From the human T2T-CHM13v2.0 reference genome, Homo sapiens, in the NCBI RefSeq assembly GCF_009914755.1, contig NC_060930.1: 64,000 nucleotides of DNA; one strand, given 5' to 3'. Each line of letters starts with the position of its first letter. Position 1 is the first letter of the stretch. Shown here one piece after another: positions 2,344 to 52,860 of the stretch. A program made the translations under genes and the position numbers. The notes beneath the pieces were generated by a model, which did no database searches, was not told the origin of the DNA, and saw nothing but the letters and a program-made list of their open reading frames with translations.

Positions 2344-3589
2344 TTTTGTGTAGCTTATACATAAGCCACCCTCATGGGACAAATATAGAAATCTAAAAAT
2401 AAAACAAAGAAAACTTTGGGAAGGCAAGTGGGACCTGGCACCCAGTGATCTGAAGGTAGCTGAGTTGTGTCAGGGTTATGGAAAGCTTAAGACAGGAACC
2501 CCAGGAGATCTGCCTGTAGCAGCCACTGAGACACTCCTCCTTCCAGAACAACTGACATCTCAGGCTCTGCAACAACTTCCACCATTACTACCCTGTTCCA
2601 AAGTTGTAAAGCAACTGAAGTCCCAACTCTAATAGTCTCAACAATTGTATTACCTAACAGTATTACACAGGCCAATGTCATTGATCAAATCTCATTACAA
2701 GAAAGAATTGCTTGTATAGGGCAAGTCGTGGTGATATTTTGATTTGGTTAGCAAAAAAAGTGTCTCTGGGACTAATTCTACACAGCAAATCCTCTATCTA
2801 GGCCTGTCCCTTAGACTGGTTACTCTGTGATGAAAATAGCTGGTTCTGAGCAGGGAACAGGGTGGACCTGTGAGAGGGGCTGAGTGGAACATGGCATGGC
2901 TCTGCTTATGGCCCCAACTCCCTCATGGGTAAGAGAATTAAACTCCAAGGCTCCACCCAGGCAAGGGAGGTCACAGCCACAGGCCCAGGAACCACAAAGG
3001 TGAAACAGGGAAGGGAAGATGCTCCCTCTGATGTTTCAAAGCTCTGAGTGAGCGGCAGAGCACCAAGGAGCCCCACGTGTGCTTGAGTGAGGCATCGGGG
3101 ACAGGAATCAGCACTGGGGTTCCAGCCTGATGGTCCCTCCTGGCTCACTCAGCTTCATCTTTGGTGAGGTGATGGGAATTGGCCCAGATGGTCCCTTCCA
3201 TCTCTAGAGTCCTAACATCCATAACAACATGAATCGGCATATTAGCCCTAGAAATGATCTTGCTGGATCATTATCAGGCTACGTGGCACACAGGCCACAG
3301 AAGTGGCTTCAAGTGCTGTGCCTTCTACACAGCAAAACTAAGTATTTATGAGATCAGCTATGGAGAGTAAAACAGAGAAAAAGGAACTGGGCAGAGTGGG
3401 AAGGGGATACCAGCAAGCCAGAACTTTTGGCTCACCTGGCAGTGAGAGCCAAGAGCCTGAAAGCCTTGCTCCCAGATGCTGGGGGATAGCATGAGGTATT
3501 CCTTAATTTTACCAATAGCTCGAGGTAGGGCATCCCCTCTGCTGACAAGGCAGGGGCACAGCAACAGTAACAGCAGCAGCCAACCACAC

Positions 3590-31539: not shown

Positions 31540-32760
31540 TATTCAGGCTCTAAACCCAAGTCATCATGGCTTTCCTCTTTCCCTCACACCCCACGTCTAA
31601 TCCATCAGCAAAGGACGCCAGCTTCAACGTAAAGTAATATCCAGACCCTCACCGTTTCTCGACACCTCCACTGGTACCACTTTAGTCCAAGCAAGCAGCA
31701 TCTCTCATTAGGTTATTGTGATAACCCCCTAATTAGTTGTCCCACTCCTCCCCTCACCTTTCTATAACCATGTCTTGGGGGTTGAACTGTGTCTCCCCAA
31801 GATTCCTATGTTGACATCCTGACCCCTAGGATCTCAGAATGTGGCATATTAGGAGACAGGGTCATTGAAGATGTCATATTAGGAAACAGGGTCATTGATG
31901 ATATAAATAGTTAAGACGAGGTCCTACTGAAGTAGGATGGGGGTTCCTAATCCAAAATGACTCTGGTGTCCTTATAAAAAGGGGATATTTGGAAGATTGG
32001 AGGTTTTCTGCCACAAGCCAAGAAGCTACCCAGAGTTGGAAAGGAGCCCGAAACAGACCCTTCCCTGGAGTCTCCAGAGGAGCATGGCCCTGCCAACACC
32101 TTGATCTTGGACTTGCAGCCTCCAGAGCTGTGAGACAATAAATCTGTGGTTTAAGCCACCCAGTGTGTGGTACTTGGTTATAGCAGCCCAAGCTAACAAA
32201 TACAGCATGCTCCCCAGAGCAGCCTAAGTGATCATTTAAAAATCACTCTTCTGCTCAGAACACTCCTGTAGTATTTCATCTGTATCAAAGTAAAAGCCAA
32301 AGTCCTTGAAATGGCCACAGTCCACATGACTTGGCTGGGCCTCCTCCCTGATGGACTGAGACACCTGACCTCTTCTCCTCCTACTCTGCCCTTCCTCCAT
32401 TTCCTCCAGCCACAATGGCTTCCTCAAACATCCAGGCAGGCTCCTGCCTCAGCCCTCCATACTTGCTCTTCCCCATCCCTGGAGCACTCTTCCCCCAGGC
32501 ATCTGTCACTTCCTACAGGTTTCTGCTCTCACGTCCTTTGCAGTGAGGCCCACCTCAAACCCCGGCCCCCTTCCTAGCCTCCTTCCCTGTTGTATTTCTC
32601 TTTGCAACCCTTATTACCACCTGACATTTATTATTTTTTTCATCCCCCTTTCCCCACTTCCCTTAGACTGTAAATTCCCTGAGAGCAGGGACATCGTATT
32701 ATGGTGTGCCCAGAGCCTGGCACATAGTAGGTGCTCAAGAAATAGCTGTTGAAAGACTTT
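31540..32760 (+). mobile_element. L2 3' portion, inserted into an antisense L2 (~31380-31530 and ~32770-32910)
   Basis: CTTAGACTGTAAATTCCCTGAGAGCAGGGAC...CCTGGCACATAGTAGGTGCTCAAGAAATA. Confidence 0.85.
31773..32204 (+). mobile_element. MLT1B/C MaLR solo LTR
   Basis: GCATGGCCCTGCCAACACCTTGATCTTGGACTT; ends AATACA; near-TSD CCATG/GCATG. Confidence 0.88.
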
Positions 32761-33774
32761 GTATGATGGAATCAAAGAAGCCAAGAGAAAAGAGAGTTGC
32801 AAGAAGGAGGAAGCTGTCCAGTGTCAAAAGCAGCAAAGAGCCCAGACAGATAAGGACTGAAGTGTCCGTTGTGTGTGGCAACATGGAAGCCGTGGGTGAC
32901 CTTAGAGAGGGCAGCCCCTGCAGAAGGCAGGAGGCCTCTGCAGCAAACCCACCGGGTCCCTGCTCTGGACCAGGCATAAGCCCCCACCAGTGGAGGCCAG
33001 CCTGCGTGGGCTATGTTAGCGAAGGCAGATTATTTCCACACATCCATCTGTAAGGGGAGGAGAAAAGAGAAGGTAAGGCTGAGGGGTGTGAAGGGCTGAG
33101 GAAGTTGCTGCTGCAGGACTGAGGCGTGAGGTCCCAGGGGCCGCAGGAAGCATGGGGATCCCTGTCCAGGGAGAGGGTTCTCTCTGGCCAGGAGGAAGGA
33201 TGTCTCTTTCTCTGAGTGCAAGGAAACCAGGTGGGAACGAGCCCAGATGCAGGTCAGCACACAGGAGGGCAGGTGGGAACCTGAGTGGGCTCGCCGTGGA
33301 GTAATATTTTCAGTGAACACAGAAGCCAGGTTGTCTCCTGAGTGGTGAAGGGCAGACAGGAGAGGAGGCTGGGGTGCACGTCCCACTGTGGGTATCAAGT
33401 GCGGGCGTGGCCCTGAAACCCAGCACCTCCTGACGTTTCTGCCCTAGGTGGCTTACTCTCTCACCCTAGTCCACACCCTGACTGGAGACAGCCAGCTGCT
33501 GGCCAGTATCCCAGAGGGCCCTGCTCTAGCCAGAGGCCGTGGTTTCGTAGAGGCACAATCTGCATGGATGTGGGGTTTTCTGTGACAGCCCTCAGTAGCC
33601 AGGGTTTAGGAGGAGAAGTTCCTAAAGCTGAATTCAAAGGCCCCAAGCAGTTCCATCTCTTTCTGTGAAGGCTTCATCATTCTCCCGGGCTCCCAGACTC
33701 AGAACCTCATACTCCACTCCCCTAATCCCTCCCAGTCACAAAACCATGCCTCTTCCCGCATGAGAAGATTCATT

Positions 33775-33945: not shown

Positions 33946-36900
33946 CTTCCACTTCCCTCTCGTCTTTTCTACATACACTACCACCACCCTAGTCCAAGTC
34001 CTCAACATTTCATTCCTAACTCTTGACATGATAAATGTCTCCTAAGTTACCTCCCAGCACTGCCCATTTACAGTTCACAAATCGAGACGGATCTTCTTAC
34101 AGCATTGCATTTACTAATCCCGGCTCCATGCTTTGGCTTTGGAGGCTCCTCAATACAGGAACATTCCAAGCTCCACAGCCATCCCTTGGGATCCTTCATA
34201 AATGGTGCACATCTCCTTCTTCAATCTTGTTTCCCATGCGTACCTCTGCTCACCCCATCTGTAATCCCCTGCCCAGTCCATGCACCCCGTCAAGGTCCTA
34301 ACACCCAGCACATTCCTCCCCTGCAGCTCTGCCCTCTGGCCACCCAGCTCCAGCCCTCTCCTGCAGTCTGCTGGGTGGCACCAACCCAGCTTACCAAGCT
34401 CTCCTGGCTCTTCTGAGCTCACTGCATCTAGCTTCTCTGGGCAAGAGCTCCCTGTGCCCATGTGGACTGCCAGCTTCTTGAGGGCAATGAATCGTGTATT
34501 GACAATGCTTGCAACTGCCCGCTGCTCAACACAGTGTCTCAGTTATTTGATCCACAGAACAATTCTGATGCTCAGGTGATATGATTCCAGAAGTTTTTCA
34601 GAAAATGTAGGAGAACCAAGATGGCCAAGTGAAGAGACACAGGGCCTTCTTGAAGCTGGGAGGCATACCTATTCTTCCTGTGCAGGAGGCACCAGAGTCC
34701 GGCACCTCCTAACATCCACTCTAACGGGGAGGAGGATGGCTGGGTTTGGCTCCTCCCTCCTCTTCCTGCACCTGCATATTCAAGGTCTTGGTGTCCTTCC
34801 TTTACCACCCTTTCACATGCTTTTGTAGACATAGATAGATATACTCTCTTCTTCCTTCTTCAAGGGAGAGCTTGAAATGTGAGAAATCCAGCTGTGTGGA
34901 GAAGCTCATGGTGACTGGCAGAACAGTCAGGACTGGGCAACCAGAAGCAGGAAAAAGAATATTCTATTTTGGGAAATGAGGAGCTGGACTGATCCACTTC
35001 GATCACCAGCTATGGACCACCATCTAACAATTCTGGGATTCCCAGAGCCACAAGAGGGAGATGCCTGGGAAAGGTGAAAATCAGCAAAACACTCAAGGGC
35101 CATCTGATCACCCCAGGCAGACAGGCAGATCTGGGTAACATGGGGCTGAGAGAAAACCACAGGTTTCAAGGGGATGCTGTCACCAAGATGCCCCATAAGA
35201 AATCAGGATCTGCCCAAACCAGGGGCAACCAAAGGGGCATTGTACTCCTCAGGACTTAGCTGAAGTCACAGGAGCACTGGAGTCAGGCCTGCGATCAAAT
35301 CCTGACCTCGTCAGCCAGGTCAGCCTTCACCTCTTGGAGGCTGGCTCTGCATGAGTGACTGTGAGGCCTAAATAAAATTAAGTGTATAGAAGTATAATAT
35401 CTAGCACAGGCCTGGCCTTACATAAGGGGCACACTCAGTGTTGCTCCCCTCCCCCTTTCCAGCCTTCAGACCTCACAGCTCTCTCCACTCTTACTAACAG
35501 AAACAAGCACAGAGGCCACAGAGCATTTCCCAGCAAGAAGGTTTGCAAAGAAGGATGGCAGAAGTCCGCAAAGAAACAAACAGGCCACCCCACTGCTGGT
35601 AAGAGAGAAGCACCGGACCTCGGTGAATGCCCGGGTTTCAAAACACACAAAGCTCCGAGCCTCTGATTGTACCTAAACAGGAAGTTTGTGACAAACTTAG
35701 AAAACACGCATGCACAATGGCAAGAGGCTGCACGCCACTGAGAAAAGATGAAATCCGGCCCTGCTGGGGGCTCTGTGTGGAGGAGAGGCGTGCAGAGCCA
35801 ACACTCCCACCGCACCAAGATCTTCCTGGCTGTAGGGAGGCACCCTTACCCTGGGCTTCTCCTCACCCCAAGCATGGGAGGGATTTGGGCCAAAATGTGT
35901 GGAGCTGCTCTGGTTTCCAAAGCCAGGCTCTGCTCACCCCCTCCTGCTCTCTCTCCCACCCCTACCCACTCAGGCATCTAGGACATCAGGTACTCCCAAC
36001 AGCTGGCAGGGGCCTGGTGACTGAGGTGTATAGCAGGGGACCATTTTTCAGCTGGGAGATCTTAGCACAGAAAGGGGAAGTGACACACAGAGGTCCCGCA
36101 GAGCTCCCATCCCCGATCTGATCTCCATCTGGCTGCCCGGCCAGCGTCTGTATCATCGGGCCCTTTAGCATTCCACAATGGGGTCCTCAGCTGCCATCTC
36201 CTTCCACTTTGACACCCTGCCTGGCCCTAACATTTTTACTTGCATTGCTCACACCAGTATGGGGCTCGATAACTTCAGTTCACTTATCTGAAAGTGCAGG
36301 CAAATGTGGACACAATCTGTGTCTCATCTCAAGTAGAGGACAAACTTGGGAGATTGTTCACAATCTCCCAAGTGCCCGTGGAATGGGCCCTGCATCCAGG
36401 CAGTATACTTGGTGGCTGTGCTCCAGTAAATACTCGGTAGATTAATACACAACATCAATACCTTCCTATTGTACCTCCCCAACCAGGTTATGTCCCACTT
36501 GTCTCTGAGTCACCCTCAGCAAGGACAGGTCCCTCTACCCCTCCTGAGTGGAGGGCCCAGCTGTAAACTCAGTCTCCTGATGGTTGGCTCCTCGGCGCCC
36601 CCACACAGCACCTCCCGCAGTGGTTTCCTCGCCCCCCCAAGTTAGGTTCCTTTTTAAAAAAATGACTCATTTAGGAAGAGACAAAACCAAGAACTTCAAT
36701 GGTAAAGATAAAACAGCAAGCACCAAGACTCTAAACACCTCCCACTCCATGTAGAATTTAGATCCGATAAAGCTTCCCCAAACTGGACCTCCTAATTTGG
36801 AACTTACGGTATACACAATTCTTCTAGCAAAGACACTTCCAGTAATGTCTCAATGTTTCAGCGTCTTCTTTACAAATAGAGATGGCCCCAGGACTCCAGG

Positions 36901-37711: not shown

Positions 37712-38677
37712 CTGAGGAGTCCAAAACTGCATAGTCAGTCAGACCCAAAACCAGAACTGAATCTAAAATCTGCACCCCCACCCAGTCCGGTTCTACACGT
37801 TTGCTCAGGTTTTTGGTATTCACAGATTTGCTAAAACTTTTTTTTTAAACAAACAAACAAAAGAGGGGACTAACTAGGGCTGCCAACTTTTGTTTTGTCA
37901 AGCAAAGGTATTTTACAAATATCTACCAGTTATCATACTATTACCACTTCCTGATGTGTCTCTTGTCTATTTGCATACCTGCTGCCCTCTCTGGCCCAGT
38001 CTCCACCCAGGAGGTAAAATTTCACAATATCTGGCCCCGCCCACTGTTGCATTCACCTTCACTCACCCTGCTCCTTATGACAAATCCAATCAAAACCCAG
38101 GCCTAAAAACTTCTCCGTCTCCTCCTTCTCTAACTCCAGTTTCTGAAAGTCTCTTCTGTAACCACAAACTACTTCCCAGTCCCTCTAAACCTACCCTTCA
38201 CCTTCCTCCTGACCTCCACATGAAAACATCTGTACAAGCCATACTAACAGTTTTGCTATTCCACACACATTATCCCTTCTAAATGTCTCCCCTACCAACG
38301 ATATACCAGCAACTATTCAAAGAGGCTGCCTCTGAGGAGCAGAATTAGGGGGTAAAGGATGGATGCAGGGGAAGGGGGGGTCTCTTTATACCCTACCATT
38401 CGAATTTGGGAAAGCATATATTCTTTTCAATGGACACAAATCACACATACACACATACACACAGCAGGTTACAAAATGCATCTCTGATTTGCTTCTGTAT
38501 TTATAAAAACACAAAAAATTGTCTGGGAAGTATGCATGTCCAGGTTCTAAATGTAAACGATATCTGAGTGGTGGGATTATGGGTGACATTATTTTCACTT
38601 CCCTTTCCTCTTTGTTATCTTTGTTATGTTTTGTTTACATAACAAAGAAAAAATAATAGTTTAAAACCTGAACCAGA

Positions 38678-49223: not shown

Positions 49224-49500
49224 CATCAAACTGAGTCAGAAAGCAAGACTCAAATATCTTCCATCAGGCTGGATAAGCAGGGTTTGTCTCTCCCCCATCA
49301 GACTGGGAGGTCCTGGAGAACATGAACTGTTGCACCATCAGACTGAATTCATCCTGCACCTCCTTCTATGCCTTTCCCCTCAGACAGGGGCTTCCTGAGG
49401 ACAGAGGCTGTGTCTCCCTAACAGATTGGGAGTCCCTGATGGCAGGGGCTGTGCTGCCCCCATTGGACTACAAGCTCCCCGGAGACAGGGTTTATCTGCC
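49224..49500 (+). repeat. Degenerate ~40-bp tandem array (about 7 units)
   Basis: CATCAGACTG-like unit starts at 49224, 49262, 49296, 49336, 49378, 49419, 49461. Confidence 0.7.
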
Positions 49501-49548
49501 TCTTTCCCTCTGTCACCTCAATGCATCCCATAAGGCGTCTCAGTATTT

Positions 49549-49605
49549 GGTGGTTCCTTAAAACAAGGCGCTGGTTGAACCAGCGCCTTGTTTTAAGGAA
49601 CCACC
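49549..49605. repeat. Perfect inverted repeat, 28-bp arms, 1-nt spacer
   Basis: GGTGGTTCCTTAAAACAAGGCGCTGGTT-G-AACCAGCGCCTTGTTTTAAGGAACCACC. Confidence 0.98.
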
Positions 49606-50179
49606 CAGGGATTGGACCACCCACCCAGGCATAATAGCCTGTGATCCCTAGCCATTAACCTATCTGAATATGAAGCTCCATGCTGAATGAAAAGAAATTA
49701 AAAATCAGCTTCACCTAACGACTTCCTAGTAAGGCTGTTTATAGGGTAGGACCAAAGGCTGTCCTCATTTTATAAATAGCCCTTTCTGGTGACTGTGGTG
49801 AGGCTGAGCTGAAATGCACCTTGAGGACCAAGAGCAGGGAGCCCACCAGCCCAGCCGTGATTGAAGCTGGGTTCTACAACCATCTTCTCAGCTTTCAGGA
49901 TAAGAAGCCCATCTCAGAGAGGCAGGGCCACTCCTCCCTCAACGGAGGAGGGAAGGGTGGATGAGAAGGCAGGGGAAGTGGCTCAGCACAAGCTTCAGCA
50001 CCTCCTGGGAGAAGCAGAGCCCACCCCAGACTTGGGGAGAAGTATTCAAGCACAGGAGGGCTCAGGGAGGCCATCAGAGGCTCCCCTGGAATCTAGTGTG
50101 CTGGCTGTTCTTGGCAAAGGGTTTCCACAGGACTGAAGAGGAGGGGCAAGAAGGCTGGAACTGCCAATGGCTGAAACCA

Positions 50180-51999: not shown

Positions 52000-52860
52000 A
52001 TACCAAATCTAAAAGACTTGGAAAGACCAACAACTCAACAGAAACATGGACAGACTATGAATCAAAAGAAAATACAAATGAATCCTAAACTTGTGAAAAG
52101 ATGTTCAACCATACTCATAAAAGAAATACAAATTAAAACTGAGATACCAATTTTCATCCATCAGATTGGCAAAGATAAAAAAGTCTGATAACTTACTGGT
52201 AACTCATCAATGAATGAGACATCCTCACCACTGTGTTGGTGAGGATGTCTCATTCATTGATGGTTTCGGTGTAAATTGCTACAACCTCCTTGAAAGGATA
52301 CTTAGTATGTCTATCAGTATCACAAATGTAGAGATGCTTTTACCAGTAATTCCACTTCTAGGAATTTATCCTACAGACATACTCCTATATATGCAAAAAC
52401 ATACACAAGGATACTCACTGCAGTATGATTTATGACAAAGGATTGGAAGTAACTACAATATCCACCATTTGGAGGGTTGCTTTAATAACTTATGATTCTT
52501 CTGTAAAATGGAATGTTATGCAGCTATAAAAAAGAATAAAGGAAAAAATGTTTTATAAGAATGAGGGCATCCTCTATGTCATAATATGGAATAATTTTCA
52601 ATGTATATTGCTAGGTAAGACAAGCAAGCCACAGAATAACATGAATAGTATGCCAACAGTTGTTGAAAAATAGTACATATTCATATACACATTTATATGC
52701 ATAGATTATCTTTGAAAAGATACCCCAAAAGCTAATAAAAGTGGTTACCTATTGAGAGGAAAAATGGGTAGCTGGGGGCAGAAAGAATTATTTAACCCAC
52801 TTTAGACTCTTCATAACTTGCAAATTTTATATCATGTACACACCTCAACTATTAAATCAA
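52000..52860 (+). mobile_element. Old L1M 3' fragment
   Basis: CATCAGATTGGCAAAGAT; TAATTCCACTTCTAGGAATTTATCCTACAGA. Confidence 0.85.

What the first reader, a model, noticed from the sequence alone, without database searches (positions are those of the whole stretch)
49549..49605. Perfect 57-bp palindrome (28-bp arms, 1-nt spacer) in non-MITE sequence
Seen: zero mismatches over 28 bp, CpG retained in both arms, abrupt ends. It is GC-balanced and does not resemble MADE1 or the MER elements in the window. Chance occurrence in 64 kb is negligible. Inference: a recent template-switch (fold-back) mutation or intrastrand conversion. It could extrude as a cruciform and would fold into a ~27-bp perfect RNA stem in the host pre-mRNA, making it a candidate de novo small-RNA precursor or ADAR substrate. 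The tiny loop is suboptimal for Drosha.
Basis: partly seen in the sequence, partly recalled or inferred. Interest (0 to 1): 0.75.

Follow-up and report, generated by a model that had tools for sequence, protein, structure and literature searches.

The report
Ordinary copy-back palindrome in TRERF1 intron
A perfect, single-copy 57-base palindrome sits in an intron of the human TRERF1 gene; it is likely the scar of one replication slip that copied neighbouring DNA backwards, a known and common mutation, and its predicted RNA hairpin is likely too short for normal microRNA processing.

Summary
The palindrome is real: 28-bp arms at 49549-49576 and 49578-49605, 1-nt spacer, no mismatches; chance about 1e-11 per window. 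The arm occurs nowhere else in the genome at up to 3 mismatches, so it is no MITE. It most likely arose by short-range template switching, a described class with >50,000 inferred events in human genic regions (PMC10710096). Two neighbours support this: a 26/6/26 palindrome at 52205-52262, whose left arm is absent from 4 of 4 scorable repeat paralogs, and a 14/2/14 palindrome at 36344-36373 that likely is a published human-lineage switch event (offset recalled). No primate orthologue was available, so origin, age and the older arm are untested. 'Recent' is loose: perfection fits ages to tens of millions of years. The host-sense RNA folds to a 27-bp stem, 3-nt loop, no basal stem, outside the 36±3-bp optimum; no Rfam family reaches threshold. 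Verdict: new member of a known kind, likely neutral. A chr6p-restricted 39-bp minisatellite family beside it may be more interesting.

The parts
49549..49576 (+). Left arm of the perfect palindrome (28 nt). Weakly resembles one unit of the adjacent 38-39-bp repeat array, in the array's orientation and register
   Evidence: Ungapped unit profile 8.8 bits; 1.4% of random 28-mers score as high at best phase; anchor 49543 = previous anchor 49465 + 78. A gapped test was not significant (58% of 249 random stretches as high).
49577..49577 (.). Single-base spacer (G); RNA and DNA folds open the innermost pair, giving a 3-nt loop
49578..49605 (+). Right arm (28 nt). Its first 5 nt recur at 49599-49603, so removing 21 nt from either arm leaves a sequence with short inverted seeds at both switch points (inferred pre-event state)
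   Evidence: the 5-mer recurs 21 nt further on; seen in 5.3% of random window 28-mers anywhere and 1.1% within the last 9 nt
49256..49497 (+). Degenerate array of about five to six 38-43-bp units of a minisatellite family confined to chr6p
   Evidence: (5 profile hits, 3.9-37.1 bits)
49453..49521 (+). Weak match to the 3' part of an old dispersed repeat (L2-type; family name recalled, no RepeatMasker call)
   Evidence: 7.1 bits, E 0.001 in a 240-nt search, profile from 14 genomic copies
49601..49632 (+). 12-nt direct repeat (11 of 12 alike, spacing 20) overlapping the end of the right arm; meaning unclear
   Evidence: family D1
52205..52262 (.). Second perfect palindrome (26/6/26) inside an old L1-type copy (name recalled); about 35 nt holding the left arm are extra relative to paralogs: an internal example of local inverted copying
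   Evidence: 4 of 4 paralogs with both anchors (of 17 examined) lack 34-35 nt
36344..36373 (.). Third perfect palindrome (14/2/14); likely the published gold-standard human-lineage template-switch event 3170 (hg38 chr6:42368118-42368135, type 3-1-2-4)
   Evidence: mapping uses an hg38-T2T offset of about 171.76 kb from recalled gene coordinates

Best explanation
The perfect single-copy palindrome is likely the neutral scar of one short-range template-switch mutation in a TRERF1 intron. Shown: two identical inverted arms, one copy in the genome, no perfect target-site duplication, repeat-derived left flank. Inferred: at a stalled fork the nascent strand switched briefly to the opposite strand, copied about 21-28 nt of the adjacent sequence backwards and returned (type 3-2-1-4 or its mirror 1-4-3-2); a 5-nt word present at both ends of the arm would have served as the pairing seed at both switches, giving a net 21-nt insertion. 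Which arm is old is unresolved (slight lean to the left arm). The RNA is predicted to fold into a 27-bp stem in the excised intron and would be degraded with it, at most lightly A-to-I edited.
For: Perfect arms far beyond chance. Single copy. Class is common: 53,666 putative switches in genic regions, 31,007 forming new stems, 6,054 miRNA-sized, 57 of 6,054 annotated as miRNA (PMC10710096); over an assumed 1.5 Gb that is about 1.3 new stems per 64 kb. Types 1-4-3-2/3-2-1-4 create inverted repeats and are 31% of events (PMC5453318); 65% of ape events lengthen the sequence, copied tracts up to 128 nt (PMC7954356). Neighbour at 52205: left-arm stretch absent from 4 of 4 scorable paralogs, and both arms share a ~15-nt loss relative to 3 of those 4, so copying came after local decay. 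Neighbour at 36344 likely equals published event 3170. Recurrent 5-mer, p 0.011-0.053.
Against: No orthologue aligned: the defining ancestor-descendant test is missing. This locus is not in the great-ape event table (1 event in hg38 chr6:42.2-42.5 Mb of about 4,000 rows), nor found by coordinate search of supplements of PMC9435742 (21 of 22 files searched) or PMC10710096 (3 files). Those lists drop repeat-masked templates and the genome-wide set of PMC10710096 was not among the files seen, so absence says little. Tests of which arm is old were weak or null (p 0.115; 65: not significant). No perfect repeat with arms of 18 or more in 149,756 nt of other loci (44 loci, not random), so two of 26-28 bp within 2.6 kb is somewhat more than background suggests (2-18% by published counts).
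Confidence: 0.8

Rival explanations
1. An older imperfect inverted repeat was polished to perfection by repeated arm-to-arm conversion (classical quasi-palindrome correction), rather than made in one step.
For: Same mechanism family; conversion of near-perfect repeats is documented in human-chimp data (PMC5453318 Fig. 2 legend). Would explain perfection at any age.
Against: Complementarity stops abruptly at both outer ends; no decayed outer arms. The recurring 5-mer fits a single insertion.
Confidence: 0.08
2. The hairpin is a functional RNA element of TRERF1 pre-mRNA (young microRNA-like precursor or edited stem) kept perfect by selection.
For: Intronic and transcribed with the host; stem pair probabilities 0.81-1.0 over 27 pairs. 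81 of 99 intragenic switch-derived miRNAs are sense-intronic (PMC10710096). Loops of 3-23 nt are compatible with processing (PMC5340965).
Against: 27 bp is below the 30-55 range used for miRNA-like stems and the 36±3 optimum; no basal stem; the only CNNC is 12 nt from the stem base. No MIR row in the gene table. Rfam best 37.9 bits against gathering 100. Base rate 0.9% even for proper-size stems.
Confidence: 0.04
3. It is a lone miniature DNA transposon or hairpin-type insertion.
For: Palindromic short element; 8-nt flanks are 5 of 8 alike.
Against: One copy in 3.1 Gb at up to 3 mismatches per arm. A 3-of-8 decayed duplication does not fit 0-of-28 arm mismatches. No TA flanks.
Confidence: 0.03
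4. It is a sequencing or assembly fold-back artefact, or a variant private to the CHM13 line.
For: Fold-back artefacts produce perfect palindromes with tiny spacers (general knowledge). Could not be checked against reads or other assemblies.
Against: The assembly is multi-platform and polished (recalled). Neighbouring palindromes look biological.
Confidence: 0.03

Closest known systems
Short-range template-switch mutations, four-point model (PMC5453318; PMC7954356; PMC9435742)
   Same: Perfect inverted repeat with minimal spacer in unique intronic DNA; tract of 21-28 nt lies within the reported range (median 12, max 128); a likely catalogued event lies 13 kb away.
   Different: Longer than the median; not listed in the tables searched; ancestral state not available here.
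Template-switch-generated miRNA hairpins (PMC10710096; e.g. hsa-mir-4713 with a 28-nt switch, hsa-mir-5690 on chr6)
   Same: Same likely origin, sense-intronic position, similar copied length.
   Different: Stem 27 bp with 3-nt loop and no basal stem; no miRNA annotation; not found in Dataset S1 (part 1 of 3 read, whole file searched by coordinate prefix and gene id).
MITEs such as MADE1 and MITE-derived miRNAs (recalled)
   Same: Short near-perfect palindrome.
   Different: Single copy, no TA or perfect 8-bp duplication.
PATRR cruciform palindromes (PMC7999016, passages)
   Same: Palindrome with almost no spacer.
   Different: PATRRs are several hundred bp and >90% AT; this is 57 bp and 50% GC.

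Membership tests
Short-range template-switch mutation | Reverse-complement copy of a nearby template (within about 100 nt) | tested here: met
   28 of 28 complementary, adjacent
Short-range template-switch mutation | Ancestor or outgroup lacks one arm and a switch alignment beats the linear alignment | not testable with these tools
   No primate genomes held (no relatives). Repeat-paralog proxies inconclusive for this locus
Short-range template-switch mutation | Not a simple or low-complexity repeat; all four bases in the copied tract | tested here: met
   No tandem repeat over it; 50% GC
Short-range template-switch mutation | Listed in published event catalogues | tested here: inconclusive
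   Not found; catalogues filter masked sequence and my hg38 position rests on a recalled offset
MITE / non-autonomous DNA transposon | Multiple dispersed copies | tested here: not met
MITE / non-autonomous DNA transposon | Target-site duplication | tested here: not met
   No TA; 8-nt flanks 5 of 8 alike
Canonical pri-miRNA | Stem of about 35 bp with basal segment | tested here: not met
   27 bp, no extension against 36±3
Canonical pri-miRNA | Apical loop of 10 nt or more for efficient processing | tested here: not met
   3 nt
Canonical pri-miRNA | Precisely stacked mature and star reads | not testable with these tools
   No read data; one novel-miRNA catalogue was not held
Rfam RNA families | Score at the family's gathering threshold | tested here: not met
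   mir-624 37.9/100, mir-3914 29/97; likely structure-only matches, alignments not viewed

The most novel reading that the evidence does not exclude
This TRERF1 intron is a template-switch hotspot (three perfect palindromes in 16 kb, two long ones 2.6 kb apart, possibly from one troubled fork), and the 27-bp, tiny-loop hairpin yields a Dicer-independent, miR-451-like small RNA (miR-451 route recalled): a primate microRNA caught at birth.
Probability: 0.04. Interest if true: 0.6.

Novelty: new member of a known kind. Interest (0 to 1): 0.2.

Why it matters
As read here it matters little: it is one of thousands of such hairpins in human genes. It is a clean teaching case, with two neighbours, and gives a sharp test (a 21-nt gap in outgroup primates). 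If both long palindromes date to one branch, that would point to chained switches over kilobases. If arm reads were found, it would be a proto-miRNA of non-canonical shape. The side finding, a minisatellite family confined to 10 Mb of chr6p, may deserve its own look.

Tried and rejected
MITE: rejected by copy number and flanks. Tandem or simple repeat: none over the palindrome. Rfam: nothing at threshold. Right flank 49578-49900 has no relatives in the genome, and 49455-49577 only itself. Which arm is old: first tail test had only 4 copies and was uninformative; tail profile from 14 copies gave 13.3 bits for the right-arm-old model against 9.3, p 0.115; gapped unit profile not significant for any model; ungapped unit profile favours the left arm modestly and post hoc. 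Fold z-score -8.8 only restates the palindrome. Background frequency: only 149,756 nt of non-random loci could be counted; two palindrome papers read in passages gave no count for perfect 25-30-bp arms (PMC7680136 allows 4 mismatches; PMC13155455). Literature searches: TRERF1+palindrome 1 unrelated listing, TRERF1+miRNA+intron+novel 18 listings, none on this locus by title and abstract start, arm sequence 0 papers, minisatellite family 0 papers and 20 of 63 listings unrelated. Earlier scan findings were not available. Protein, structure and microbial collections were not used: irrelevant to a human intron.

Full report
Observation. The sequence at 49549-49605 is a perfect inverted repeat: 28-nt arms, one G between them. 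It is the longest of its kind in the window. Chance expectation is 1.1e-11 per window. Arms are 50% GC with one CpG each. No tandem repeat covers it. By the supplied gene table it lies in an intron of TRERF1 (minus strand), 18 kb from the nearest exon in the window, with no miRNA row.

Not a transposon. A DNA search of the whole genome with 161 nt around it returned only itself and its own reverse. A pattern search with the arm at up to 3 mismatches returned 1 forward and 1 reverse match, both this locus, control 0. There are no TA flanks, and the 8-nt flanks agree at 5 of 8, which does not fit arms with 0 of 28 mismatches.

Surroundings. The left flank 49256-49497 is a decayed array of 38-43-bp units. 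Its relatives are tandem arrays of 38-39-bp units; 53 of 54 DNA matches and 96 of 96 pattern matches lie on chr6 between 33.9 and 43.9 Mb, apart from one on contig 16. The last unit and what follows (49453-49521) match weakly a profile of 14 dispersed repeat 3' ends (7.1 bits); I recognise these as L2-type from memory, no call names them. The right flank has no relatives.

Neighbours. A second perfect palindrome (26/6/26, 52205-52262) lies in an old dispersed repeat (42 matches; L1-type by recall). Of 17 paralogs examined, 4 carried both anchors; all 4 lack 34-35 nt that hold the left arm and align through the right arm; 3 of the 4 carry about 15 nt that both arms lack (pairwise pictures of two more paralogs show the same 35-nt gap, others are too diverged). 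So this one was copied locally after the repeat had decayed. A third (14/2/14, 36344-36373) maps onto the only event that the great-ape table of PMC7954356 lists in hg38 chr6:42.2-42.5 Mb: number 3170, gold standard, human derived, type 3-1-2-4. The mapping uses an offset from recalled hg38 gene coordinates and should be checked by liftover.

Mechanism. Short-range template switching makes such repeats in one step. PMC10710096 (parts 1-4 of 6 read) infers 53,666 events in human genic regions, 31,007 making new stems and 6,054 of miRNA size, 0.9% annotated as miRNA. Here the first 5 nt of the right arm recur 21 nt later (p 0.011-0.053): removing 21 nt from either arm leaves short inverted seeds at both switch points. 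This predicts a 21-nt gap in outgroups. It is inference. Which arm is old is open: an ungapped unit profile scores the left arm in the array's orientation and register (8.8 bits; 1.4% of random 28-mers; 42 of about 127,800 positions), but a gapped test is null and the mirror model gains only non-significantly on the tail profile (p 0.115).

Age. With assumed rates of 0.5-1e-9 per site per year and CpG sites at tenfold, a pair of arms stays perfect with probability 0.58-0.76 at 6 Myr, 0.06-0.25 at 30 Myr and 0.003-0.05 at 65 Myr. So it is probably younger than the primate root but need not be human-specific. It is absent from the ape table, which would fit an origin before the human-gorilla split, but that table drops repeat-masked templates (PMC7954356 passages). 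It was not found by coordinate prefix in 21 of 22 supplementary files of PMC9435742 (abstract and passages read) or in 3 files of PMC10710096 (one further file too large to read).

Function. In host-sense RNA the stem has 27 pairs at probability 0.81-1.0, a 3-nt loop and no basal extension; the only CNNC is 12 nt from the base. The optimum is 36±3 bp and loops of 10 or more, though 3-23 nt are compatible (PMC5340965, abstract and introduction). Rfam gives only sub-threshold hits; the two families hit, mir-624 and mir-3914, are themselves listed as switch-made hairpins. A 27-bp perfect duplex could be edited by ADAR at low level (general knowledge, untested). The DNA hairpin is -34 kcal/mol as a single strand; extrusion in a supercoiled plasmid is plausible, but known unstable human palindromes are far longer and AT-rich (PMC7999016 passages).

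Against my reading. The defining test, an ancestor with one arm, could not be run. No arm of 18 or more was seen in 149,756 nt of other, non-random loci; published counts over an assumed 1.5 Gb give 2-18% for a second event within 2.7 kb, so the pair is mildly unusual but not evidence of a hotspot. An assembly artefact was not excluded. Searches found no paper on this locus; supplements of most papers and one novel-miRNA catalogue were not seen.

Verdict. Real, single-copy, most likely a neutral template-switch scar (0.8). New member of a known kind. Interest 0.2.

Noticed in passing
window 49256-49497; G000:C6:33.9-43.9 Mb (L026-L044): A dispersed family of 38-39-bp minisatellites, arrays of about 3-23 units in both orientations, is confined to about 10 Mb of chr6p: 96 of 96 genome-wide matches to a 30-nt unit at up to 3 mismatches, 31 of 31 at 1 mismatch. 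The unit resembles an L2-type 3' segment (name recalled). How it spread locally is unexplained. Two literature searches found no description, which is thin. Possibly more interesting than the finding itself.
   Followed up: partly
window 52205-52262: Second perfect palindrome (26/6/26) in an old L1-type copy; left arm is an insertion relative to 4 of 4 scorable paralogs. With a 6-nt loop and a predicted lower stem it looks more like a pri-miRNA than the 57-mer.
   Followed up: yes
window 36344-36373: 14/2/14 palindrome, likely published human-lineage template-switch event 3170 of PMC7954356, which that paper also lists under TF binding sites; 39 nt from the RefSeq enhancer 36216-36305.
   Followed up: partly
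window 32640-32770: L2-type 3' end remnant (name recalled), 29 genomic matches; used as reference.
   Followed up: partly
L026:1458-1668 and 2753-3029: Two arrays of the 39-bp family face each other in opposite orientation about 1.1 kb apart, which could form a long RNA duplex if transcribed.
   Followed up: no
window 38618-38648: 12/7/12 perfect inverted repeat, AT-rich; not examined.
   Followed up: no
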